This document shows positions 3,404 through 18,429 of a DNA stretch of 64,000 nt, piece by piece. The notes below the pieces were generated by a model. That model was not told where the DNA came from. It searched no databases and was given only the letters and a program-made list of their open reading frames with translations. Numbering within the stretch: the stretch's first letter is position 1; each line of letters starts with the position of its first letter. The translations under genes were made by a program, and so were the position numbers. The stretch is taken from sequence record SRR22947725_485. One strand, written 5' to 3'.

Positions 3404-5209
3404 ATGAAAAAATTCATCTCAATACTAGCATATTTTACTATTTTATTTGGACAGTTTAGCGATCCCGCTGAATTCAAATTTAATATCAACAATACCAATC
3501 AAGGTGAAGTAGTTATATTGGAGGTTCAGGCGAATATAGAGAATGAATGGCATATTTATGCAATTTATGATGTTCCTGAAGGGCCAGCACCAACCGTTAT
3601 TAATGTAGTTTCAGATCAGATTGTTAAGGTAGGTAAAATTATAGAACCAGATCCTGTTGTAGAATACGATGAAGGCTTTGATAATATTACTAAAAAACAT
3701 TTAGGAAATCCTTTATTCCAAGTGCCTATTATTTTAGATAAAAATTTATCAAATGGTATATATTCAGTTGATGTAACAGTCGAATACCAGGTTTGTACAG
3801 GAAATTTATGCTATCCACCTAATGAGTTTAGCGGTACTATTGAATTTGTCTTAGAGAGTGGTAATATAAGAGAGCAGTTTACTATTGATAATTTTGACTT
3901 TTCAAAAGAGTCTGTATTTAACCGCCTTGAACTTGATGATTCTGATATTGGAGGATTCCTCTTTATTTCATTAATCATGGGATTTGCTGCATTGTTAACA
4001 CCCTGCGTTTTTCCAATGATACCTATTACTATTTCTTTCTTCTTGAAGAGAGGAGAAGATAAAAAAACTTCGCCAATTAAAGATGCTTCAGTTTATATGC
4101 TCGGTATTGTTATGACTTTTACATTATTAGGTATGTTATTAGCTATATTTCTGGGTGCTTCGGGAGCAACACAACTTGCTGCTAATCCTTATGTAAATTT
4201 ATTTATTGCCTTTTTGTTCATTTATTTTGCTTTTTCACTTTTTGGTTTTTATGAAATTGAGATTCCACAATCATTAAAGCGCTTCTCCCTAGAAAGAGAA
4301 AGTTCCGAAGGATATGCAGGTATTTTATTCATGGCATTAACTTTTACACTTACTTCTTTTACATGTACAGTTGCATTTATGGGTACAATCTTAGTTGCTG
4401 CATCACAAGGTGATTGGTTTTGGCCTATTATAGGCATGTTAGTATTTAGTTTAGCTTTTGCATCACCTTTCTTTTTCCTAGCTCTCTTTCCACATTATTT
4501 GAAAAAGCTACCTCAATCAGGTGGTTGGTTGAACTCTGTAAAAGTGATTATGGGTTTTCTTGAAATAGCAGCAGCTTTTAAATTTATTAGTAATACAGAT
4601 TTAGTATGGCAGTGGGATATTTTTACATATGAGATAGTGCTTTATTGTTGGGCACTTATTATGATCCTATGCGCTTTTTATATTGTGGGAATTATTCACT
4701 TTAAACATGATTCTAAAATAGCAGTTTCTTATCAAAGAGGATTAGTCTCTTCAGTATTTTTATTATTAGGTCTTTATCTCTTATCAGGAAATTTTGGATA
4801 TAATATTAACGGAACAATTGAGTCTTATCTTCCGCCAAAGAAAGTGAAATCAAATTTGAATTGGGTAAATTCTTTGGATGATGCATTCATTTTAGCGAAC
4901 CAGAGTGATAAAAAAATATTTATAGATTTTACGGGAGTTACATGTACTAATTGTCGATGGATGGAAACAAATGTATTTGCAAAGAAATCAGTAGAAGAGA
5001 TAATGTCTAATTATGTTCTAGTTAGCCTTTATACTGATTCTGGAGATAACTATCTTGAAAAGAGAGATTATCAAATTAATCGATTCAAAACAGCAGCATT
5101 GCCTTATTATGTTATTTTAGATAAAAATGATTTAGTAATTGGAGAGTTTCCTGGTATGACTAGAGACGTTGAAGAGTTTAAGAGATTTTTACAAGAAGGC
5201 TTAAACTAA
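3404..5209 (+). CDS. dsbD: Thiol:disulfide interchange protein DsbD (N-terminal domain, TM domain, thioredoxin domain)
   Basis: CTGNLC, LTPCVFPMIP, SFTCT, CTNC; ATG 3404 gives a signal peptide (MKKFISIL). Confidence 0.9.
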   Translation: MKKFISILAYFTILFGQFSDPAEFKFNINNTNQGEVVILEVQANIENEWHIYAIYDVPEGPAPTVINVVSDQIVKVGKIIEPDPVVEYDEGFDNITKKHLGNPLFQVPIILDKNLSNGIYSVDVTVEYQVCTGNLCYPPNEFSGTIEFVLESGNIREQFTIDNFDFSKESVFNRLELDDSDIGGFLFISLIMGFAALLTPCVFPMIPITISFFLKRGEDKKTSPIKDASVYMLGIVMTFTLLGMLLAIFLGASGATQLAANPYVNLFIAFLFIYFAFSLFGFYEIEIPQSLKRFSLERESSEGYAGILFMALTFTLTSFTCTVAFMGTILVAASQGDWFWPIIGMLVFSLAFASPFFFLALFPHYLKKLPQSGGWLNSVKVIMGFLEIAAAFKFISNTDLVWQWDIFTYEIVLYCWALIMILCAFYIVGIIHFKHDSKIAVSYQRGLVSSVFLLLGLYLLSGNFGYNINGTIESYLPPKKVKSNLNWVNSLDDAFILANQSDKKIFIDFTGVTCTNCRWMETNVFAKKSVEEIMSNYVLVSLYTDSGDNYLEKRDYQINRFKTAALPYYVILDKNDLVIGEFPGMTRDVEEFKRFLQEGLN

Positions 5210-5252
5210 ATGTGGAACTTATTATCTATGTTATCATTTAAATAAAAAGAAA

Positions 5253-6647
5253 ATGAAAAGAATACTAATAATATTAATCGCATCATCATCCTTATTTTCT
5301 CAAGGATATATGTTTAAGCAGTTCAGTAATTCATTTGCTGATATCGCTGAGAATGTAAATGAGTCGGTCGTTACAATTACAACTACAAATAAAGTAACTA
5401 TGGATGAAGATGTGCAAAATTTCTATAGATACTGGGGCAGATCTCTTCCAGAAGAATTCGAAAGTAAGTCACTAGGGTCTGGCGTGATTGTAGACGAAGA
5501 CAATGCATATATTGTTACAAATCATCATGTGATTTTTGATGAAAGAAATGATAAGCCTGTTGATCAAATTATGGTAGAATTAATGGACAAGAGAGTCTTT
5601 GAAGCTACTGTTGTAGGTTTAGATCGAGGTACAGATTTAGCTGTCTTACAAATTGAAGCAGATAACATTAAGGCAGTTCCAATTGGCGATTCTGAGCTAG
5701 TTAGAGTCGGTGAATGGGTTCTTGCTATTGGAAGTCCTTTTTCAGCTAATTTGAGTCATACTGTTACAGCGGGAATCATTAGTGCTATGGGAAGAAATAA
5801 TGTTATGCGAGGTAGCGATACATATCAAAACTTCATTCAAACAGATGCAGCGATTAACCCAGGAAATAGTGGTGGAGCATTATTAAATATGAGCGGCGAA
5901 CTCATTGGAATTAATGCGGCAATAGCTTCAGGAAGCGGTCGATCTAATGCTGGAATCGGATTTGCAATTCCATCGAGTATTGTTACAAAAGTAATGAATG
6001 ACTTAATTTCTAAAGGATATGTAGTGCGCTCTTTCTTAGGGATTTATATGCAAGATATAAATGAAGATCTTTATGAAACTATGGGTCTTGAATCTAGAAA
6101 AGGTACAATTGTCAGCGATATTGTTGAAGGAAGTCCAGCTGAAAAATCTGGCTTAGAATCAGGAGATGTTATTGTTGCTTTTGAAGGTAAAGAAATTACA
6201 AATGGTGCTGCATTAAAAAATTTAGTATCCAGTGCAAGTCCAGGTCAAAAAATAACGCTAACAATTTCACGAGAAGGAAAAGTGCAAGACATTAATGTTG
6301 TACTTGAAGAAAGATCTGGAGCTGAAATGGCAAGCAGTAGTAGTAATGATTTTGACGAATTTGGATTATCAGTACTTGACCTAACAGATGACTTAATTGA
6401 CCAGTATGATATCCAGCGCCCTATGAATTCTGATATTCAAGGCGTAGTAGTAGTAAATATAGAAGAAGGCGGTATTGCAGAGCAGTCAGGCATGTTAGAA
6501 GGAGATTTGATTACTCGCATTGGAAGACAAAAGATTTCTAATCTTACAATGTTTAAAGAAGAAATCTCAAAATATGAAGAAGATAAAAAAATTCTATTCT
6601 TAGTAAAACGTGGCAATGCATCTAGATTTTTAACACTTAGAAGATAA
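5253..6647 (+). CDS. degP: Do/DegP/HtrA serine protease with two PDZ domains
   Basis: TNHHV, DLAV, QTDAAINPGNSGG catalytic triad motifs. Confidence 0.92.
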   Translation: MKRILIILIASSSLFSQGYMFKQFSNSFADIAENVNESVVTITTTNKVTMDEDVQNFYRYWGRSLPEEFESKSLGSGVIVDEDNAYIVTNHHVIFDERNDKPVDQIMVELMDKRVFEATVVGLDRGTDLAVLQIEADNIKAVPIGDSELVRVGEWVLAIGSPFSANLSHTVTAGIISAMGRNNVMRGSDTYQNFIQTDAAINPGNSGGALLNMSGELIGINAAIASGSGRSNAGIGFAIPSSIVTKVMNDLISKGYVVRSFLGIYMQDINEDLYETMGLESRKGTIVSDIVEGSPAEKSGLESGDVIVAFEGKEITNGAALKNLVSSASPGQKITLTISREGKVQDINVVLEERSGAEMASSSSNDFDEFGLSVLDLTDDLIDQYDIQRPMNSDIQGVVVVNIEEGGIAEQSGMLEGDLITRIGRQKISNLTMFKEEISKYEEDKKILFLVKRGNASRFLTLRR

Positions 6648-6659
6648 ATTCTAATCAAA

Positions 6660-6688
6660 TTGCAATAATTCAACATTTCTTATAAGTT
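6660..6688 (+). promoter_or_regulatory. Putative sigma70 promoter of the ileS operon (TTGCAA-17-TAAGTT)
   Basis: Canonical spacing; -10 ends 15 nt before ileS ATG. Confidence 0.55.
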
Positions 6689-6703
6689 TGTAGTTAATTC
6701 ATC

Positions 6704-9700
6704 ATGAGTATAAGAAAAGAAAATCCAAAAATAGACTTTGTATCCAACGAGCACGAGATACTTGAATTCTGGGAAAAAAATCAAATTTTTCAAAAATTAG
6801 TAAGTCAAAATTCAGAAGGTAAGAAATGGAGCTTTTTAGATGGTCCTATTACTGCTAATAATCCAATGGGAGTTCATCATGCTTGGGGTAGAACACTAAA
6901 AGACCTTTATCAGCGATATAAGTCAATGAATGGATATCAACTTCGATACCAGAACGGCTTTGATTGCCAAGGACTTTGGGTTGAAATTGAAGTAGAAAAA
7001 GAGCTTGGTATTAAGTCTAAGAAAGAAGTAGAAGAGCTTGGAATAGAAAAATTCGTTAAGCTTTGCAAGGAGCGTGTGAAAAAATATTCAGATATACAAA
7101 CTGAACAGTCTAAAAGACTAGGTTATTGGATGGATTGGGAAAACTCATATTATACCATGTCCGATGAAAATAATTATGCTATATGGGGGTTTTTAAAAAA
7201 ACTATTTAACGATGAAAAAATTTATAGAGGTACTGATGTTGTACCTTGGTCAGGTAGATCAGGTACATCTTACTCTCAGATGGAAATTATCGAAGGCCGA
7301 AAATTAACAGTTCACAAGGGCGTATTTGTAAAGTTTCCTTTAAAAGATAAAAAAAATGAAAACATATTAATTTGGACTACAACTCCATGGACTCTTTCAT
7401 CAAATATTGCTGTTGCTGTGAATAAAAAAATCAATTATGCAAAAATACAGTTAGCAGATAAGTCTATCTATTATGTTGCAGAAACTAATTTAAAGTATCA
7501 ACGACTAAACAAAGAGTTCACAGAAAAGAAGAACTGGATTGATGGCGTACCAAAGCTAAAAACCTTAGATCAAATATTTAAGGAAAGAGGCGGATATGAA
7601 GTGATTGAATTGTTGAAGGGGGAAGATATGGTTGGTTGGACTTATAAAGGTCCATATGACCACTTAGAACCACAGCAAACAGCTGGAGGCTATCCAAATA
7701 TTAATCAAGGCGTAAAAGAGGGAGAGCTCACGCCTATACAGTGCCATATCGTAATTGATGGTGGAAAAGATTCCGAAGGTCAAGATATGGTTGTTGAAGG
7801 CGAAGGAACTGGTATTGTTCACATGGCTGGTGGTTGTGGATCAATAGATAATAAAATTTGTAAAAAAGAAGGTTTTGTAGAGATTTCACCAATTGATAAT
7901 CAAGCAAACTTTATTGATGGATTTGATTTTATGGCAGGATTAAATGTTACTGATCCTGACACAGCTTCAAAGATTATTCAAGATTTAAAAGATAGGAATT
8001 TTTTACTTTATGCAGAAGATTATCCTCATATATATCCTCATTGCTGGAGATCCGGAGATGAGCTTGTATTTAAGCAAGTAGATGAATGGTATATAAATAT
8101 GGACTGGAGAAATAGGATTAAAGATGTTGTTAGCGATATTAATTGGATTCCAGAATGGGGAGAAGATAGAGAGCATAATTGGCTAGATAATATGGGCGAT
8201 TGGATGATTTCTAAGAAGAGATTCTGGGGATTAGCTTTACCTATTTGGACATTTGAAGATGGTAGTTTTTATGTGGTAGGTTCTAAGAAAGAATTAAAAG
8301 ACCTGTCCGTTGAAGGGTGGGAAGAGTTTGAAGGAAATAGTCCTCATAGACCTTGGATTGATCATGTAAAAATTAAACATCCTGACTCCGGGCTTATTGG
8401 TACAAGAATTCCAGACGTTGGAAATCCTTGGCTGGACGCAGGAATCGTTCCTTTTTCTACTCTAAATTACTTTGAAGACAAAAAATATTGGAACGAATGG
8501 TTTCCAGCAGATTTTATTACAGAGTGTTTTCCAGGTCAATTTAGAAATTGGTTTTATTCACTATTAGCTATGTCTTCTTTTCTTGAAGACAAAGCTCCAT
8601 TTAAAACTCTGCTTGGACATGCGCTAGTAAAAGCGGAAGATGGGCAAGAGATGCATAAATCAGCAGGAAATGCTATATGGTTTGATGATGCCGCTGAAAA
8701 GATGGGTGTGGATGTTATGAGGTGGATGTATACAAGGCAGAATGTTGAGAACAACTTATTGTTTGGATATGATAAAGCCGATGAAGTCAGAAAAAGATTA
8801 ATCAGTTTTTGGAATATCTATTCCTTCTTTTGTACTTATGCAAGCTTAGATGATTTTAAACCTCATTCTGAAAAAATAGATAAAAATGATTTAACATTAT
8901 TAGACAAATGGATTATTTCAAAAGCAAACTTATTGATTAAAGATTCTACTGTTCATTATGATCATTTTGAAGCAGATAAGCTTGTAAAGAAGGTAGAGTT
9001 ATTTATTGATGACTTATCTAACTGGTATATTAGAAGAAATAGAAGAAGATTTTGGAAAAGCGAGAATGATAAAGATAAGTTCGTAGCATACCAAACTTTG
9101 TATGATGTTCTTTTATCTCTTATAAAGCTATTAGCTCCAATTTTACCATTTATTACAGAGCGTATGTATCTTAATATCTCAAAAGATGATCCAAATGAAA
9201 ATCATGCTAGCATTCATCTATCTCCTTATGTAGGTCATGATGAAGAGAAGATTGACATGGATCTACTCAAAAAAGTTGAAACCCTCAAAAAGGTTATTGA
9301 ATCAGGCAGAGCTGCAAGAAAGAAAGCTAATATAAAAGTTAGACAACCTCTTTCAAATTTAAAGATATACGAAAAAGATTCGACGCTAACTGAGTTTATT
9401 TTAAGCCAACAACAGCTCATCTTAGATGAATTGAATATTAAAACTATATCTATAATGACAAGCTTAAAAGATATGGGCTCCTTTATTATAAAGCCAAACT
9501 TTAAAATCTTATCTTCAAAGTTTGAAGAAGATATGCAAACAGTAGTTAAGTACATTAGTACGCTTGACCAGTATGATGTAATGGAAAAATATCTAAGTAA
9601 TCAACAAATAGCTTCAGATAAATTTGATATTATAAAAGAAGATGTCATTGTTCAAATTCAAGGACATGAAAAAGAAGAAGCATTTTTTTCAAATGACGTT

Positions 9701-14312: not shown

Positions 14313-14792
14313 ATGGCAACTTTAATTTTAAAAGATACACATCGAATATTGATAGAAAAAATTGAAGCTCTTAATAAAGAGAAGAGAGAGACTTCTTTAA
14401 GAATTAGAGAAGCTGCTGATCAGGGAGATCTTAAAGAAAATGCAGAATATCATGCAGCTAGAGAGCATCAGAGCTTACTAGTATATAAAATACAATTAAT
14501 GCAGTCCCATGCTCCATTCAAGATGATTGGTGATAACGATATCGATAATGAAAGTGTTGGATTTGGTAATAAAGTTGCTATACTTGAGGAAGGTAAAGAA
14601 AAAGCTGAAGACTATTATATCTTAGGCCCTATCGAATCTGAATTAGATCTTTATCCATTAGCTGTAACCTACAAATCACCTTTTGCTAGAGCTATAATTG
14701 GAAAAAAGGTTAATGAGGATTTTACATTAGAAATCCAAGGCAATGATACAAAATTTACTATCACTGCAATTGAAAAAATCCCTGCAGAATAA
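14313..14792 (+). CDS. greA: Transcription elongation factor GreA
   Basis: GDLKENAEYHAARE; SPFARAIIGK. Confidence 0.9.
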   Translation: MATLILKDTHRILIEKIEALNKEKRETSLRIREAADQGDLKENAEYHAAREHQSLLVYKIQLMQSHAPFKMIGDNDIDNESVGFGNKVAILEEGKEKAEDYYILGPIESELDLYPLAVTYKSPFARAIIGKKVNEDFTLEIQGNDTKFTITAIEKIPAE

Positions 14793-14794
14793 AT

Positions 14795-15061
14795 TTGAAC
14801 TGTCAAATTTGTAATCGAGAAAAACCTTTAACTTTCCACCATCTAGTCCCTAGAAAGAATCATAGAAATAAATGGTTCATAAAAAGATTTACCAAGCAAG
14901 AAATGAGAGAAAGAGGTCTAAATCTTTGTCATTTATGTCACAAATTTATTCATAAGAAATTTTCTGAAAAAGAATTAGGAAGAAATTATAATAATTTAGA
15001 TTCTCTAATATCAGATCCTCTTATTAAAAAATATGCTATATGGGCATCTAAGCAGAAATGA
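14795..15061 (+). CDS. Small HNH endonuclease-like protein (YisB-like)
   Basis: CxxC-R..LTFHHLVP...LCHLCHKFIH...ELGRNYN pattern; TTG start. Confidence 0.75.
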   Translation: MNCQICNREKPLTFHHLVPRKNHRNKWFIKRFTKQEMRERGLNLCHLCHKFIHKKFSEKELGRNYNNLDSLISDPLIKKYAIWASKQK

Positions 15062-15067
15062 TCAATA

Positions 15068-15946
15068 CTAAGATGTTTTAGATGGCTGAAAAATATTTTT
15101 TCCTTCAAATAATTTTGTACCATTTATGTAACTATGATACTTTCTACATTCACAAGATAGATATTCAATATCAATAGGTTGAAATGCTCTTTTAGCTTCA
15201 GGCCAATATTTTTTTTGCAATTCAATCATCTTATTACACGTTTCTTGGTGATTTTCTAATTCAAGATATTTTTGTAATCTGTCTAGATAAGCGACCGCAC
15301 CAATCCCTGTTGGAACATCACTTGATGGGTTTATAATATCTGGGCGAAACCAAGCCAAGTCAATAATAGCCATAAAAATAGGAAAATTATTTTGCATTTT
15401 AAAAAGAGAATTAATTGAGTGGGTAGCCTTGATCACATCTCCTTTAGATTCTATAATAATTTTAGCTAACGATTCTTTGATATCTCCAAATAATGCTGTG
15501 GCTGCATCCAATCGGCTATGTTGCATTCCATTCCAATATATTGATTCAACAGGGTAGGCATTGATATTGCACCAAGGATCAAAGGTTTTTAGTGTTTGAA
15601 TCAATTTTTCTGGATGAAGTAACATATCTGAGGATATTCGATTTAAAGTTTCTGACCTATTACACCATCGAGCAAAAAACAAAGAATGAATTAGCATAGG
15701 TAAATCGTTTTCTAGATCTTTAGCAAAGGATAGAATTGCTTTGCTACCACGATCATCTTCTCGAAAAATATTTAGGAAGCGACCTTGTTGAAAAATAGGG
15801 TCATCTGTCCATGGATATGGAGCACCACTTTCTCTTTTTAAGCGAATTTTTTCTCTTTGACGACAAAAATCAAAAAAAGCAGACACAGGATCATTTATTA
15901 CTAGTCCATCAAGTGCAGTAGCGTAAGGATTTTGAATTTTATTCAT
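15068..15946 (-). CDS. aGPT-PPlase1-like (alpha-glutamyl/putrescinyl thymine pyrophosphorylase clade 1; amino acid:DNA transferase-like) protein
   Basis: N-terminal REKIRLKR..G.P.PWTDDPIFQQGRFLNIFREDDRGS and C-terminal IEYLSCECRKY motifs. Confidence 0.75.
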   Translation of the reverse strand: MNKIQNPYATALDGLVINDPVSAFFDFCRQREKIRLKRESGAPYPWTDDPIFQQGRFLNIFREDDRGSKAILSFAKDLENDLPMLIHSLFFARWCNRSETLNRISSDMLLHPEKLIQTLKTFDPWCNINAYPVESIYWNGMQHSRLDAATALFGDIKESLAKIIIESKGDVIKATHSINSLFKMQNNFPIFMAIIDLAWFRPDIINPSSDVPTGIGAVAYLDRLQKYLELENHQETCNKMIELQKKYWPEAKRAFQPIDIEYLSCECRKYHSYINGTKLFEGKNIFQPSKTS

Positions 15947-15950
15947 TTAT

Positions 15951-17054
15951 CTATTTACGTGCGTTAATCATCAAGTATAGCCCAATACCTATAAAGATTA
16001 TATTTGATAACCACGCTCCCATGAAAGGTGAAAGTACACCTGCATAGCCAAGAGACTGTCCAAATTTTAATATAATTACATAAGCAAATATCGTTGCTAA
16101 GCTTAGTCCCCCACCAAATGCTAGCGTTGTATTAGATCTAAAAACAGATAAGGGTATCCCACAAAAAATTACAATCAGACTAATGAATGAGTATGCTAGC
16201 TTGTAATGTAGATCAACTTCCCATTTTAAAGTATTTACTCCATTACTTTTCAATGTTGCAATTTGATCTCTTAGATCGTTATAGGATCGCTCTTCCGATG
16301 ATCCGCTTGTTTGCGTTATATCTTCAGGAGAAAAATTTAAACTTATCAAAGAGTCTTGATTAGATCTAGCTAGAATAGTTTCATACCCTAAATCATCAAA
16401 TTCTCTTATAGAAAAATTTCTGAGATTCCATTTAGATTTTTCTGAATTCCAAACACCTTTTTTTGCATCTATTCGTCTTTGCATCTTCCCATTGTTGAGT
16501 TCCATTAGATTTAAATTCATGATTACTTGATTCATACTATTGTATTTATCAATTGCGATGAGTTCGCTTTGATTTTTTTGAAAATAAACATTTTCAAAAA
16601 TTGACTTATCTTTACGAACACTTTTATTTTTCTGTAAATAACTTTTCTTTATTTCGTTTTGTATCTTATTATTTTTTATAACTACGGTGTTGTCAAAAAA
16701 AAATGATCCAATACTTAATAATAGCCCCAAAAATAATATAGGTATTGATAATCGATAAAGACTTAGCCCTGATGATTTAAAAACTAACCATTCTTTTTTT
16801 TGTACCATCATTCCATATGTGAATACAGATGCTACAAGACATGTTACAGGAATAGTAACGCTAATCATTGAAGGAATGGCAGCTATGTAGTATTCAACTA
16901 AGACAGAACTAGTTACTTCATTGTCTATAAATTTATTTAGATTTTCAAAAATATCAACAATAAGTGAAATAAGTGTAAAGAACAGAGATACAAATAGAAA
17001 TGTGATCGAAAATTCTCGAAGGATATAATAGTCAATTTTTTTCATTATATTCAT
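15951..17054 (-). CDS. lptG: LptF/LptG family LPS export permease (start may be 17045)
   Basis: IDYYILREF N-terminus, SSGLSLYRL, periplasmic beta domain, GAWLSNIIF; F versus G assignment tentative. Confidence 0.8.
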   Translation of the reverse strand: MNIMKKIDYYILREFSITFLFVSLFFTLISLIVDIFENLNKFIDNEVTSSVLVEYYIAAIPSMISVTIPVTCLVASVFTYGMMVQKKEWLVFKSSGLSLYRLSIPILFLGLLLSIGSFFFDNTVVIKNNKIQNEIKKSYLQKNKSVRKDKSIFENVYFQKNQSELIAIDKYNSMNQVIMNLNLMELNNGKMQRRIDAKKGVWNSEKSKWNLRNFSIREFDDLGYETILARSNQDSLISLNFSPEDITQTSGSSEERSYNDLRDQIATLKSNGVNTLKWEVDLHYKLAYSFISLIVIFCGIPLSVFRSNTTLAFGGGLSLATIFAYVIILKFGQSLGYAGVLSPFMGAWLSNIIFIGIGLYLMINARK

Positions 17055-17067
17055 AACTTACTTAATC

Positions 17068-18429
17068 ATGGATTTAATTAATAATTTTTTTGCAAATTTA
17101 TCAAATTTCCTTTGGGGAAACTTTGGAGTAGCCAATCTAGTCATTGGCGGAGGTATATTTTTTCTATTTTATTCAAAATTAACTCCATTTAGATACTTTA
17201 AGCATGCCTTTGACATACTTTTAGGTAAGTATGACGATCCAAACGATGATGGTCAAATTTCGCACTTTCAAGCCCTATCTACAGCGCTTTCAAGTACGGT
17301 TGGAATAGGAAATATTGCCGGTGTAGCTGTTGCTATATCTCTAGGAGGACCTGGAGCATTATTTTGGATGTGGATTAGCGCTATAGTTGGAATGGCAACT
17401 AAATTTTTTACCTGCTCATTAGGGATCATGTTTAGAGGTCATGATTCTGATGGTGAATTGCAGGGCGGTCCTATGTATGTTATTGAGCAAGGTATGGGTA
17501 AGAAATTTAAATTCCTTTCATATTGGTTTAGTATTGCTGGACTTGTTGGATGCTTATCTCTGTTACAGGTAAATCAGTTAACTCAAATACTATCAGATCA
17601 ATTGATTAAAACAAATCCAAATATTGCTTCATCAATTCCTTTAGACTTAACTATAGGAATTATCATTGCATTAATTGTATCTGTAGTAATATTTGGAGGT
17701 CTTCAACGTATTGCTGATGTTGCCTCTAGAATTGTTCCATTTATGGTAATCATTTATATGTCTGCTGGATTATTTATAGTTTTTACAAATATTGAATTGG
17801 TACCATCAATTTTTAACTTAATTATAAGCAGTGCTTTTAACGGAAGTTCAGTAGCTGGAGGTTTCGTAGGAACAGCTGTAGTAATTAGCCAGGGATTTAG
17901 AAGAGCTGCATTTTCAAATGAAGCTGGTATGGGTACAGAAGTGATGGCTATTGGAGCATCGAAAAATAATGAGCCAATTAGATCTGGTCTTGTAGCAATG
18001 ATAGGACCAGTGATTGATACAATCATCGTATGCACAATAACAGGAATTGTTATTTTACTATCAGGAGATTGGATGACAGGAGAGTTTTCTGGTGTTAGTT
18101 TAACACAGAAATCTTTTGCTAACCATCTTGGGGTAGTTGGCGACTTTATTCTTATTTTTTCAGTAGCAACTTTCGCACTGTCTACTATGTTTGGATATTC
18201 TTACTATGGATGTAAGTGTGCATCTTATTTATTTGGTACAGGTTCAAAAGTATACTACAGAATTTTTTATGTTATAACGCTTGTTCTTGGTTCTGTGCTA
18301 TCGTTAGATTTAGCTGTTAATATTGTAGATGCAATGTTTGCTTTAATGGCTTTTCCTACTATGATATCAGCAATTTACTTGTCCCCTCATATTAAAAGAG
18401 AGGCAAAAAGATATTTTAAAACTATTTAA
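17068..18429 (+). CDS. Alanine/glycine:cation symporter (AGCS family)
   Basis: VGIGNIAGVA, GGPGALFWMW, GGPMY, FSNEAGMG. Confidence 0.93.
   Translation: MDLINNFFANLSNFLWGNFGVANLVIGGGIFFLFYSKLTPFRYFKHAFDILLGKYDDPNDDGQISHFQALSTALSSTVGIGNIAGVAVAISLGGPGALFWMWISAIVGMATKFFTCSLGIMFRGHDSDGELQGGPMYVIEQGMGKKFKFLSYWFSIAGLVGCLSLLQVNQLTQILSDQLIKTNPNIASSIPLDLTIGIIIALIVSVVIFGGLQRIADVASRIVPFMVIIYMSAGLFIVFTNIELVPSIFNLIISSAFNGSSVAGGFVGTAVVISQGFRRAAFSNEAGMGTEVMAIGASKNNEPIRSGLVAMIGPVIDTIIVCTITGIVILLSGDWMTGEFSGVSLTQKSFANHLGVVGDFILIFSVATFALSTMFGYSYYGCKCASYLFGTGSKVYYRIFYVITLVLGSVLSLDLAVNIVDAMFALMAFPTMISAIYLSPHIKREAKRYFKTI

What the first reader, a model, noticed from the sequence alone, without database searches (positions are those of the whole stretch)
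15068..15946. Orphan phage-type DNA hypermodification enzyme (aGPT-PPlase1-like) embedded among core genes
Seen: motifs PWTDDPIF..GRFLNIFREDDR and IEYLSCECRKY; the gene starts 4 nt after the lptG stop, so it is probably co-transcribed. Known: this family (HhH glycosylase-like fold) transfers amines or amino acids onto activated 5-hydroxymethyluracil in phage DNA and usually occurs with a 5hmU DNA kinase and a thymidylate synthase-like enzyme. None of these partners and no prophage genes are recognisable in this window. Inference: a domesticated enzyme that modifies host DNA, acts on incoming modified phage DNA, or works in repair.
Basis: partly seen in the sequence, partly recalled or inferred. 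Interest (0 to 1): 0.75.

Follow-up and report, generated by a model that had tools for sequence, protein, structure and literature searches.

The report
Orphan phage-type thymine-modification enzyme homologue
A small ocean bacterium (SAR406/Marinimicrobia) carries a conserved but dispensable stand-alone copy of an uncharacterised enzyme family that phages keep beside their thymine-modifying genes; it looks catalytically intact, has none of the usual partner genes, and its substrate is still unknown.

Summary
A 292-aa ORF lies at 15068-15946 on the minus strand. Both motifs are present, and its ATG is 4 nt after the lptG stop.

It matches Pfam PF18723 (HMUDK_hel; E 1.2e-19, full length). Other sources label members of this family 'aGPT-Pplase clade 1'. 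It does not match PF18724 (ADDT), which is the characterised amino-acid:DNA transferase. The AF2 model (pLDDT 95) matches phage PF18723 proteins (TM up to 0.72) and, more weakly, ADDT-domain proteins.

Ten residues are invariant, including C265-E266. A sub-threshold local profile alignment places E261 and C265 on the metal-binding Glu243 and nucleophilic Cys247 of PaMx11 gp46.

The gene belongs to a cellular marine clade that is at most 29% identical to any viral relative found. Basal members of this clade are fused to an AAA_28 P-loop domain. The stand-alone forms (Marinimicrobia, Actinomarina) are a nested subclade.

No kinase, ADDT or hydroxymethylase partner was found in the window or in the nearest genomes. 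The gene is under purifying selection (dN/dS 0.13-0.21), but 5 same-genus genomes have a clean empty site.

My best reading (about 0.4) is a Cys-dependent enzyme acting on 5-hydroxymethyluracil-type bases, most likely in DNA.

This scan has already noted the same family in 8 other windows.

The parts
15068..15946 (-). 292-aa CDS: stand-alone PF18723 (HMUDK_hel, 'aGPT-Pplase clade 1') protein of the cellular marine clade
   Evidence: ORF. Pfam E 1.2e-19. AF2 model pLDDT 95.3. Foldseek BFVD matches to phage PF18723 proteins, E 1.9e-7, TMq 0.72. dN/dS 0.13-0.21.
15137..15169 (-). Codons for I260-Y270 (IEYLSCECRKY), the putative active-site motif: E261 (at least 90% conserved) and C265, E266, K269 (invariant)
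   Evidence: Invariant columns in A1 and A3 and in 73 of 74 tree rows, the remaining row having a gap there. A local hhalign hit aligns E261 and C265 with Glu243 and Cys247 of PaMx11 gp46 (E 0.087, not significant). The roles of Cys247 and Glu243 come from PMC11472151 passages.
15749..15814 (-). Codons for P45-R66 (PWTDDPIFQQGRFLNIFREDDR), the N-terminal conserved block holding invariant W46, N59, R62 and D65
15947..15950 (-). 4-nt spacer between the lptG stop and the target ATG
   Evidence: Read. No promoter-like or terminator-like excess in 14700-17300 (14 promoter-like sites against 13.8 expected; 0 terminators).
15951..17054 (-). lptG/lptF-family permease gene, the upstream neighbour on the same strand; context only, not a functional partner
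   Evidence: PF03739 E 3e-78. This neighbourhood is limited to this Marinimicrobia group: 19 of 80 loci.

Best explanation
The gene encodes a working enzyme, not a kinase and not a relic. It is a stand-alone member of PF18723, the uncharacterised second 'aGPT-Pplase' paralogue of phage thymidine-hypermodification clusters.

Shown here: family membership, fold, an intact set of family-invariant residues, purifying selection, presence in RNA libraries, and a position in a cell-only marine clade whose basal members carry a fused AAA_28 P-loop domain that this lineage has lost.

Inferred: by analogy with the solved clade-2 enzyme, E261 would hold a metal on the pyrimidine O4 and the C265 thiolate would add to C6 of a flipped-out 5-substituted uracil. 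This would activate the exocyclic C5 carbon so that its oxygen substituent is lost or replaced.

Most likely substrate (inferred): 5-hydroxymethyluracil in DNA. This base is the product of thymine oxidation and is also the base that many marine phages build into their DNA. The net effect would be removal or reversal of that base, giving thymine or uracil, rather than decoration of host DNA.

The enzyme works without a dedicated partner. It is an accessory function rather than an essential one.
For: Family and fold: PF18723, 71 bits; PaMx11 gp50 and Sonora_042 match the same model at E 6e-41 and 5e-52; pLDDT 95.3; 10 BFVD hits at E<=1e-3, 6 of them named as PF18723/'Pplase1' proteins, including phiRSL1, the kinase-fused SP10 protein, Lucky3 and PhiW-14, one an ADDT-domain protein at E 2.4e-4 and TMq 0.61, and three without a family name; the nearest non-PF18723 Atlas clusters are ADDT and aGPT-Pplase3, scores 0.90-0.92.

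Catalytic residues: R31, W46, N59, R62, D65, Y131, D196, C265, E266 and K269 are invariant in 55 and in 41 sequences. Of these, R31, W46, N59, R62, D65 and D196 are unchanged in all 74 tree rows. C265, E266 and K269 are unchanged in 73 of 74, with one marine row gapped there. Y131 differs in 2 of the 33 viral or distant rows. The only hhalign hit between the clade-1 and clade-2 profiles aligns E261 and C265 with gp46 E243 and C247. The roles of those gp46 residues come from PMC11472151 passages, and the essential Cys and Glu in M6 gp51 and ViI gp247 from PMC8989533 passages.

Selection and expression: dN/dS is 0.13-0.21 in 8 pairwise comparisons, 7 of them distinct. Metatranscriptome contigs cover the gene in X14 and X15 (one study) and X16 (a second study).

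Cellular clade: 176 relatives in genome contigs, the best 80 being 58-88% identical. Viral relatives are at most 29% identical over the full length. The marine clade is monophyletic for 41 of 41 tips (support 0.78), and the stand-alone subclade of 18 tips has support 0.997 and nests among fused forms.

Link to a phosphotransfer step: 14 of 16 longer homologues carry AAA_28 (Pfam), which parallels the phage pairing or fusion with the 5-hmdU DNA kinase.

DNA as substrate: every characterised relative acts on DNA with base flipping (PMC11472151 and PMC8989533 passages). The weak best-TM PDB matches are Ogg/AGOG-type HhH glycosylases. One OCS155 locus places the gene directly after umuC.
Against: No activity of any PF18723 member is in print in the papers I could search. 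M6 gp55 was dispensable in the in-vitro reconstitution.

The clade-1/clade-2 motif equivalence rests on an hhalign hit with probability 0.66% and E 0.087. The solved gp46 structure did not appear among the top 50 PDB Foldseek hits, and no PDB hit reached E<=1e-3.

The activating kinase is missing here. No AAA_28 above cut-off, no PF18748 and no homologue of the fused domain were found in G001, G006, G014, G032 or G040. A leaving group better than hydroxide is therefore not provided for.

Several observations point to free nucleotides rather than DNA. The fused domain resembles NadR-type small-molecule kinases. One homologue is fused to a dCMP-deaminase domain. Actinomarina places the gene at the end of carA-carB-pyrF. 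In viral loci the commonest neighbour is the thymidylate-synthase homologue (72 of 80), not the kinase (39 of 80) or ADDT (13 of 80).

Five same-genus genomes lack the gene cleanly, so any repair role is not essential. Expression evidence comes from contigs of RNA libraries, which can contain DNA.
Confidence: 0.4

Rival explanations
1. Nucleotide-pool enzyme. The protein acts on a free 5-substituted (deoxy)uridine nucleotide or nucleoside such as 5-hydroxymethyl-dUMP, for sanitation or salvage, returning it to the dUMP/dTMP pool. It does not act on DNA.
For: Close relatives are fused to an AAA_28 domain whose only NCBIfam similarity is to the NadR kinase region and to a nucleoside/nucleotide kinase family. 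One homologue is fused to a ComEB/dCMP-deaminase-type domain. In 13-15 Actinomarina/OCS155 loci the gene ends a carA-carB-pyrF-DHO_dh-like operon. In viral loci the tightest neighbour is the dUMP-hydroxymethylase-type TS homologue, 72 of 80. QNG1, a glycosylase-like fold that works on a free nucleotide, is among the weak PDB matches.
Against: All characterised relatives act on DNA. The Actinomarina context is a single lineage, and another OCS155 locus has umuC instead. The deaminase fusion is one sequence from one 1.7-kb contig. No thymidine kinase was found in G001, G006 or G014, so nucleoside salvage has no obvious entry point in this genus. The phage SP10 fusion partner is named a 5-hmdU DNA kinase.
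Confidence: 0.28
2. The protein is an amine or amino-acid transferase that decorates the host's own DNA with a hypermodified thymine, or an epigenetic-type mark.
For: The protein is related by fold and motif to the ADDT transferases. By the table in Lee 2018 (PMC5889632 passage), SP10 has only a clade-1-type domain, yet by the cited papers it makes a hypermodified base. Clade-1 proteins may therefore also be transferases.
Against: No source of 5hmdU was found in the nearest genomes: there is a single canonical ThyA at 344 bits and no second TS homologue. No kinase and no ADDT were found. The gene is missing from 5 same-genus genomes with an otherwise identical locus, which is hard to reconcile with a genome-wide DNA mark.
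Confidence: 0.1
3. Anti-phage or phage-interaction function. The host enzyme acts on incoming phage DNA that contains 5hmdU or its derivatives, disarming the modification.
For: The gene is accessory, showing presence/absence polymorphism at one site. An HNH-like 88-aa ORF lies next to it in this sublineage (sub-threshold). Marine pelagiphages carry TS plus Pplase1 pairs (PMC9599517 passages). aGPT-Pplase domains are listed among predicted defence domains (PMC13092281 passage).
Against: There is no PADLOC match and no defence-island context, the neighbours being lptG, greA and pckA. The gene sits at a stable position with vertical inheritance and ordinary purifying selection. The HNH-like ORF is absent from most loci that carry the gene.
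Confidence: 0.1
4. Non-catalytic remnant. After losing its kinase half, the protein is a decaying or merely DNA-binding leftover.
For: The kinase domain has been lost. The gene is dispensable in some genomes, and G005 holds a fragment with 2 in-frame TGA stops.
Against: dN/dS is 0.13-0.21. All family-invariant residues are retained. The stand-alone subclade spans two phyla and many genera. These are roughly 1-Mb streamlined genomes.
Confidence: 0.05

Closest known systems
Phage PF18723 proteins ('HMUDK_hel' / aGPT-Pplase clade 1): PaMx11 gp50, Stenotrophomonas phage Sonora CPT_Sonora_042, Ralstonia phage phiRSL1 B2ZYD4, PhiW-14 C9DG43, and the helical part of the SP10 kinase fusion F8WQ30
   Same: They match the same Pfam model, share the same predicted fold (TMq 0.61-0.72) and share the same invariant residues, including the C-E...K motif.
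   Different: Identity is only 23-29%. The phage genes sit beside a TS homologue (72 of 80 viral loci) and often a 5-hmdU DNA kinase (39 of 80), whereas the target has neither. The cellular clade is separated by a long branch. No phage member has a demonstrated function either.
Clade-2 aGPT-Pplase / amino acid:DNA transferase (PF18724 ADDT): PaMx11 gp46 (PUGT), M6 gp51, ViI gp247, YuA and SH-Ab 15599 Pplase2
   Same: Both are all-alpha proteins with a similar predicted fold (ADDT-domain BFVD hits at E 2.4e-4 and TMq 0.61). Both have a C-terminal E-x3-C motif followed by basic residues and N-G. ADDT clusters are the nearest Atlas neighbours.
   Different: There is no HMM match, the profile-profile probability is 0.66%, and the profile search against PDB sequences finds nothing. 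The clade-2 enzymes need 5-phosphomethyl-dU made by a kinase and an amine or amino-acid donor (paper passages). Neither a kinase nor any tailoring enzyme is present here.
Bacterial HMUDK_hel + AAA_28 fusion proteins (for example P0121, P0124, P0271-P0284; loci L053, L055, L070, L076, L086, L096, L100)
   Same: They are 42-65% identical over the whole helical domain, belong to the same marine clade and have the same invariant residues.
   Different: They carry a C-terminal P-loop domain (PF13521) of about 190 aa, which the target lacks. No homologue of it was found in the nearest genomes. These fusion proteins are also uncharacterised.
HhH-GPD type DNA glycosylases (Ogg2/AGOG: 3n0u, 3knt, 1xg7) and the queuine salvage enzyme QNG1 (7ugk)
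   Same: All are all-alpha proteins. These are the PDB entries with the highest TM-scores and probabilities among the matches (TMt 0.21-0.47, probability 0.15-0.51).
   Different: No PDB match reaches E<=1e-3, and there is no Pfam glycosylase match. The invariant Cys-Glu pair is not a glycosylase signature (this last point is from recall).

Membership tests
PF18723 HMUDK_hel (aGPT-Pplase clade 1) | Match to the Pfam model above the gathering score, over its full length | tested here: met
   E 1.2e-19, 71.2 bits against 25; profile positions 5-272 of 281.
PF18723 HMUDK_hel (aGPT-Pplase clade 1) | Same fold as phage members | tested here: met
   The AF2 model (pLDDT 95.3) matches phiRSL1, SP10, Lucky3, PhiW-14 and 'Pplase1 clade 1' BFVD models at E 1.9e-7 to 6.7e-4 and TMq 0.57-0.72.
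PF18723 HMUDK_hel (aGPT-Pplase clade 1) | Family-invariant residues (R31, W46, N59, R62, D65, Y131, D196, C265, E266, K269 in target numbering) | tested here: met
   All are present in the target and invariant in 55- and 41-sequence alignments that include phage proteins. They were checked again in 74 tree rows.
PF18723 HMUDK_hel (aGPT-Pplase clade 1) | Genomic association with a thymidylate-synthase homologue (dUMP hydroxymethylase) and/or a 5-hmdU DNA kinase | tested here: not met
   Viral loci: TS in 72 of 80, kinase in 39 of 80. Target: none in the window. PF18748 was not found in 5 genomes. A single canonical ThyA lies on another contig of G001.
PF18724 ADDT (clade-2 aGPT-Pplase, amino acid:DNA transferase) | Match to the Pfam model | tested here: not met
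   No PF18724 hit even at E<=10, whereas gp46 and Sonora_039 match it at E 1.6e-27 and 2.4e-23.
PF18724 ADDT (clade-2 aGPT-Pplase, amino acid:DNA transferase) | Catalytic Cys (gp46 Cys247) with the metal-binding Glu four residues before it (Glu243) | tested here: inconclusive
   The target has E261-x3-C265, and the only hhalign hit aligns the two motifs, but at probability 0.66% and E 0.087. Residue roles come from PMC11472151 passages.
PF18724 ADDT (clade-2 aGPT-Pplase, amino acid:DNA transferase) | Transfer of an amine or amino acid to 5-phosphomethyl-dU in DNA | not testable with these tools
   This needs enzyme assays.
5-hmdU DNA kinase (PF18748 HMUDK_HMUD1, P-loop) | P-loop kinase domain | tested here: not met
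   The 292-aa protein has no P-loop family hit. The kinase is a separate gene or domain in phages.
HhH-GPD DNA glycosylase superfamily | Significant sequence or structural match | tested here: inconclusive
   No Pfam hit. The best PDB Foldseek matches with any TM-score are 3n0u_A (E 1.4, probability 0.51, TMt 0.47), 3knt and 1xg7.
Known anti-phage defence systems (PADLOC) | Match to a defence-system protein model | tested here: not met
   No family at E<=1.

The most novel reading that the evidence does not exclude
PF18723 may be the missing enzyme of an open question. Thymidine-hypermodifying phages convert the 5-hmdU in their DNA either to a hypermodified base or to plain thymine, and 'how 5-hmdU is converted to thymidine ... 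is still unknown' (PMC5889632 passage; PMC8989533 passage). Read with the 2021 clade assignment, the table in PMC5889632 makes clade 1 and the kinase the only hypermodification genes shared by all four phages compared. In viral contigs, clade 1 travels with the hydroxymethylase far more often than with the transferase.

If clade 1 is the thymine-forming enzyme, then the marine cellular clade (kinase-fused, or stand-alone as here) would be a direct-reversal repair system that turns oxidised thymine (5hmU) in DNA back into thymine without excising the base. It would operate in some of the most abundant bacteria of the ocean.
Probability: 0.12. Interest if true: 0.85.

Novelty: new variant of a known kind. 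Interest (0 to 1): 0.58.

Why it matters
PF18723 is the one recurrent gene of phage thymidine-hypermodification clusters that still has no assigned activity.

The cellular branch studied here is widespread in abundant, genome-streamlined ocean bacteria (SAR406/Marinimicrobia and Candidatus Actinomarina), with kinase-fused forms in MAGs labelled Myxococcota, Rhodothermales and Planctomycetota. It is under purifying selection and keeps every family-invariant residue, yet it lacks all known partners.

A small soluble 292-aa protein from a non-pathogen is an easy biochemical target. Finding its substrate would assign a function to a family of more than a thousand sequences. It would show whether bacteria use thymidylate-synthase-like C6-thiol chemistry on 5-hydroxymethyluracil for repair or salvage. 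It would probably also reveal what the phage paralogue does.

Cellular homologues have already been mentioned in print (PMC5889632 and PMC9599517 passages). Their existence is therefore not new; their architecture, their phylogenetic independence from phages and their possible role are.

Tried and rejected
1. A single-sequence AF2 model was useless (pLDDT 34.5). It was redone with alignment A1.
2. PDB sequence searches found nothing with the protein, the A1 profile or the fused homologue P0121.
3. PDB Foldseek gave 0 hits at E<=1e-3, and the solved gp46 structure was not in the top 50.
4. NCBIfam and PADLOC gave no family for the target. PHROG 2396 (unknown function) matched only residues 22-108.
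5. I tested the idea that the gene replaces thymidylate synthase and rejected it. ThyA is present in G001, G006 and G014, and ThyX in G032 and G040.
6. The search for a separate kinase partner was negative, using PF13521, PF18748 and the fused domain of P0121 as a protein query. Only sub-threshold generic P-loop hits appeared.
7. Co-transcription with lptG is left open. RNA-library contigs cover both genes, but none bridges the junction with at least 31 nt on each side.
8. Promoter and terminator scans showed nothing above the shuffles.
9. Isoelectric point as a proxy for DNA binding was uninformative. The marine domains have a median pI of 5.5-5.9 and the viral ones 8.7, but the known DNA enzyme gp46 has pI 5.7.
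10. No gene neighbour is conserved across lineages. The neighbours are lptG, an OYE-type oxidoreductase, the pyrimidine operon, umuC, a pseudouridine synthase, MFS transporters and a sulfatase.
11. The Iyer et al. 2013 paper that defined the families and Maltman et al. 1980 are not held. What I say about them comes from citing papers or from recall.
12. Supplementary figures could not be seen. Fig. S4 of PMC9599517, a tree that includes bacterial orthologues, may bear on the claim that the cellular clade is separate.
13. One literature search was wasted on unrelated terms, and one call failed on a format error.
Full report
OBSERVATION

The ORF is real. It lies at 15068..15946 on the minus strand, is 292 aa long and starts with ATG.

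The upstream gene on the same strand (15951..17054) is an LptF/LptG permease (PF03739, E 3e-78). Reading, the lptG stop TAG is at 15951-15953 and the target ATG at 15944-15946, so the gap is 4 nt.

Downstream and convergent are an 88-aa ORF (14795..15061), greA (14313..14792; Pfam) and a 534-aa ORF that I read as pckA from its sequence. The pckA assignment was not run through a family search.

The window has 31.6% G+C. By the record titles of its closest relatives (88-64% identity), it comes from a SAR406/Marinimicrobia bacterium (Candidatus Neomarinimicrobiota) with a genome of about 1 Mb. The window's own assembly is not held, so the nearest genome G001 (80% of sampled words) stood in for it.

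WHICH FAMILY

Pfam gives one significant match, PF18723 'HMUDK_hel, 5-hmdU DNA kinase helical domain' (E 1.2e-19, 71 bits, full length). Nothing else appears even at E<=10.

The model once called aGPT-Pplase2, now PF18724 'ADDT' (amino acid:DNA transferase), does not match the target. In phages PaMx11 and Sonora the two families are separate genes. gp46 and Sonora_039 are PF18724. gp50 and Sonora_042 are PF18723 and lie directly after the P-loop kinase gene and before the thymidylate-synthase homologue.

BFVD entries that match my model are named either '5-hmdU DNA kinase helical domain-containing protein' or 'Pplase1 ... clade 1'.

- M6 gp51, ViI gp247 and PaMx11 gp46 transfer glycine or serine to 5-phosphomethyl-dU (PMC8989533 passages).
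- The M6 reaction did not need gp55.
- I found no paper that assigns an activity to clade 1. This rests on full-text searches for 5-HMUDK/aGPT-Pplase and for PF18723/HMUDK_hel/Pplase1. I read passages only, not whole papers.

STRUCTURE AND ACTIVE SITE

With a 55-sequence alignment, AF2 gives an all-alpha model with pLDDT 95.3 and pTM 0.91. The single-sequence model had failed.

- Against BFVD there are 10 hits at E<=1e-3. Six are named as PF18723/'Pplase1' proteins, with the best being phiRSL1 (E 1.9e-7, TMq 0.72) and one being the SP10 kinase fusion. One is an ADDT-domain protein (E 2.4e-4, TMq 0.61), and three carry no family name.
- Against the PDB nothing reaches E<=1e-3. The matches with the highest TM-scores are Ogg/AGOG-type HhH glycosylases (3n0u_A, TMt 0.47) and QNG1.
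- Ten residues are invariant in alignments that mix marine, distant and phage sequences: R31, W46, N59, R62, D65, Y131, D196, C265, E266 and K269.
- Comparing the clade-1 and clade-2 profiles gives one local hit only (probability 0.66%, E 0.087). It aligns IEYLSCECRKY..NGT of the target with VETILC-KWKSHQNGH of gp46, placing E261 on Glu243 and C265 on Cys247.
- In the gp46-DNA structure, Cys247 clamps the flipped thymine and is the proposed nucleophile. Glu243 and Thr244 hold the metal that also binds O4 (PMC11472151 passages).

The residue equivalence is suggestive, not proven. Together with the fold match, it is my basis for calling the protein a Cys-dependent pyrimidine enzyme.

THE CELLULAR MARINE CLADE

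- The word-indexed search finds 1544 relatives. The best 120 are all 285-300 aa, 71-98% identical and carry PF18723.
- The exhaustive search finds 1661 representatives at E<=1e-3, with 34 at E<=1e-30.
- Among longer proteins, 14 of 16 hits are HMUDK_hel + AAA_28 fusions that are 42-65% identical to the target. One is fused to a dCMP-deaminase-type domain. One looks like a gene-call join with a glycine C-acetyltransferase.
- In species-representative genomes, 176 relatives were confirmed. The best 80 (58-88% identity) come from Marinimicrobia, Candidatus Actinomarina/OCS155, and MAGs labelled Myxococcota/Deltaproteobacteria, Rickettsiales, Rhodothermales and Planctomycetota. These last groups mostly hold the fused form.
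- In viral contigs, 475 relatives were confirmed, but full-length matches are only 23-29% identical. In the phage collection, all 88 records with a match are below 60% identity.

I built a FastTree tree of 74 sequences picked by hand for spread: 28 of the 80 genome loci, 16 of the 80 viral loci, 27 database proteins, 2 phage proteins and the target. It recovers the marine clade (41 of 41 tips, support 0.78, long stem). Within it, a stand-alone subclade of 18 tips (support 0.997) nests among fused forms, and the Actinomarina tips nest among the Marinimicrobia and unlabelled-MAG tips.

This points to loss of the kinase-like domain, followed by transfer between the two planktonic phyla. It does not point to a recent capture from a phage. 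The root is a midpoint root and I ran no topology tests, so the order of events is an inference.

CONTEXT AND DISPENSABILITY

The lptG-target arrangement holds in 9 of 9 same-genus loci and in 19 of 80 genome loci. Other lineages differ:
- a second group (L064, L073-L075, unlabelled 'bacterium' MAGs that fall beside the Actinomarina tips in the tree) has GDPD, then an OYE-type flavin oxidoreductase overlapping the target start;
- Actinomarina has carA-carB-pyrF, a DHO_dh-like gene, a 129-aa ORF, then the target;
- one OCS155 locus has an S24 peptidase divergent from umuC, then the target;
- others have unrelated neighbours.

In a phylum-wide sample of genomes at least 85% complete, 29 of 201 have the family. 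All 29 are in the window's order, and 15 of 19 in its genus.

I looked at the lptG locus in five same-genus genomes: the four without a match and G005. In all five, lptG abuts greA with no gap. G005 has only a fragment elsewhere, with 2 in-frame TGA stops.

Pairwise dN/dS against 8 orthologues (7 distinct) is 0.13-0.21. Contigs of RNA libraries cover the gene in three runs from two studies. DNA carry-over cannot be excluded, and no contig bridges the lptG junction.

PARTNERS

- None was found in the window.
- In G001, G006 and G014 (96-99% complete) and in G032 and G040, I found no PF18724 (first three genomes only), no PF18748, no AAA_28 above cut-off and no homologue of the fused domain.
- The PF18724 and PF18748 searches also rang in none of the control genomes, so these negatives are weak.
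- The genus has one canonical ThyA and no thymidine kinase (0 of 3).
- In 80 viral loci, a TS homologue lies within the locus in 72, a kinase in 39 and ADDT in 13. For the 47 loci with at least 10 kb held, the counts are 42, 19 and 8. Detection was limited to two tblastn queries per partner.

INTERPRETATION

I commit, at about 0.4, to the following. The protein is a stand-alone Cys-dependent enzyme that attacks C6 of a 5-hydroxymethyluracil-type base and changes the exocyclic C5 carbon. It most likely acts on DNA, either on oxidised thymine or on foreign 5hmU DNA. It is an accessory function, not an essential one.

The main rival, at about 0.28, is the same chemistry on free nucleotides. It is favoured by the NadR-like kinase and deaminase fusions, by the pyrimidine-operon context, and by the TS homologue being the tightest viral partner.

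The boldest reading not excluded is that PF18723 is the unidentified enzyme that turns 5-hmdU in DNA into thymine, a step stated to be unknown in PMC5889632. The marine clade would then be a direct-reversal repair of oxidised thymine.

EARLIER NOTES

After forming my reading I consulted the scan's notes. The same family had been reported in 8 other windows with similar conclusions.
- I reached the family assignment, the fusions and the pyrimidine-operon context independently, before that call.
- The umuC adjacency was a lead from two of those notes, and I confirmed it in L098.

VERDICT

This is a new variant of a known kind: a known family with a new architecture and context, and an uncharacterised cellular branch. 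I score interest at 0.58.

Noticed in passing
window 14795-15061 (+): An 88-aa ORF lies convergent with the target, with 6 nt between the two stops. It has a CxxC...HH...CxxCH pattern and sub-threshold HNH matches (PF13391 E 0.01, PF01844 E 0.021). It is also present in L010 (G003) but absent from the other same-genus loci that carry the target.
   Followed up: partly
L190-L194 (G158, G012, G109, G005, G214): Presence/absence polymorphism. In these five same-genus genomes lptG directly abuts the convergent greA, with neither the target nor the 88-aa ORF between them.
   Followed up: yes
G005:C26:7924-8169: A weak PF18723 fragment (E 9e-4, 93-aa frame) with 2 in-frame TGA stops lies away from the lptG locus. 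It may be a decayed copy.
   Followed up: no
L064, L073, L074, L075 (about 4000-6880): In this group of unlabelled 'bacterium' MAGs, the homologue's start overlaps the end of an OYE-type NADH:flavin oxidoreductase gene (PF00724, E 2e-61), which follows a GDPD gene. A flavin reductase as neighbour would fit a reductive step, but I did not test this.
   Followed up: partly
P0274 (538 aa): This is a single homologue, 55% identical over the helical domain, fused to a ComEB/dCMP-deaminase-type domain (PF00383, PF14437). It comes from one 1.7-kb contig, so it may be a rare architecture or an assembly artefact.
   Followed up: partly
P0285 (547 aa) and L001 (G032): One 'longer' hit is named glycine C-acetyltransferase and matches only half of the query. 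In L001 the gene upstream of the homologue is a 340-aa ORF that I read as a threonine-dehydrogenase type (not checked). P0285 is probably a joined gene call in a kbl-tdh neighbourhood.
   Followed up: no
L098 4125-6858: One OCS155 lineage has a divergent S24 peptidase (umuD-like), then umuC (IMS, IMS_C, DUF4113), then the homologue 35 nt downstream on the same strand.
   Followed up: yes
L110-L189 (viral contigs): In viral loci the PF18723 gene travels with a thymidylate-synthase homologue (72 of 80) much more often than with a detectable kinase (39) or ADDT (13). In 32 loci only the TS homologue was detected.
   Followed up: partly
PMC5889632 Table 3 compared with PMC8989533 Table 1: The two papers label M6 gp51 and gp55 with opposite clade numbers (Pplase1 and Pplase2). 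The clade names in the literature therefore need care.
   Followed up: partly
L080 5606-5995 (+): A 129-aa ORF sits between the DHO_dh-like gene and the homologue in the Actinomarina operon. It has only a faint phosphoribosyltransferase match (E 0.0055, below cut-off).
   Followed up: no
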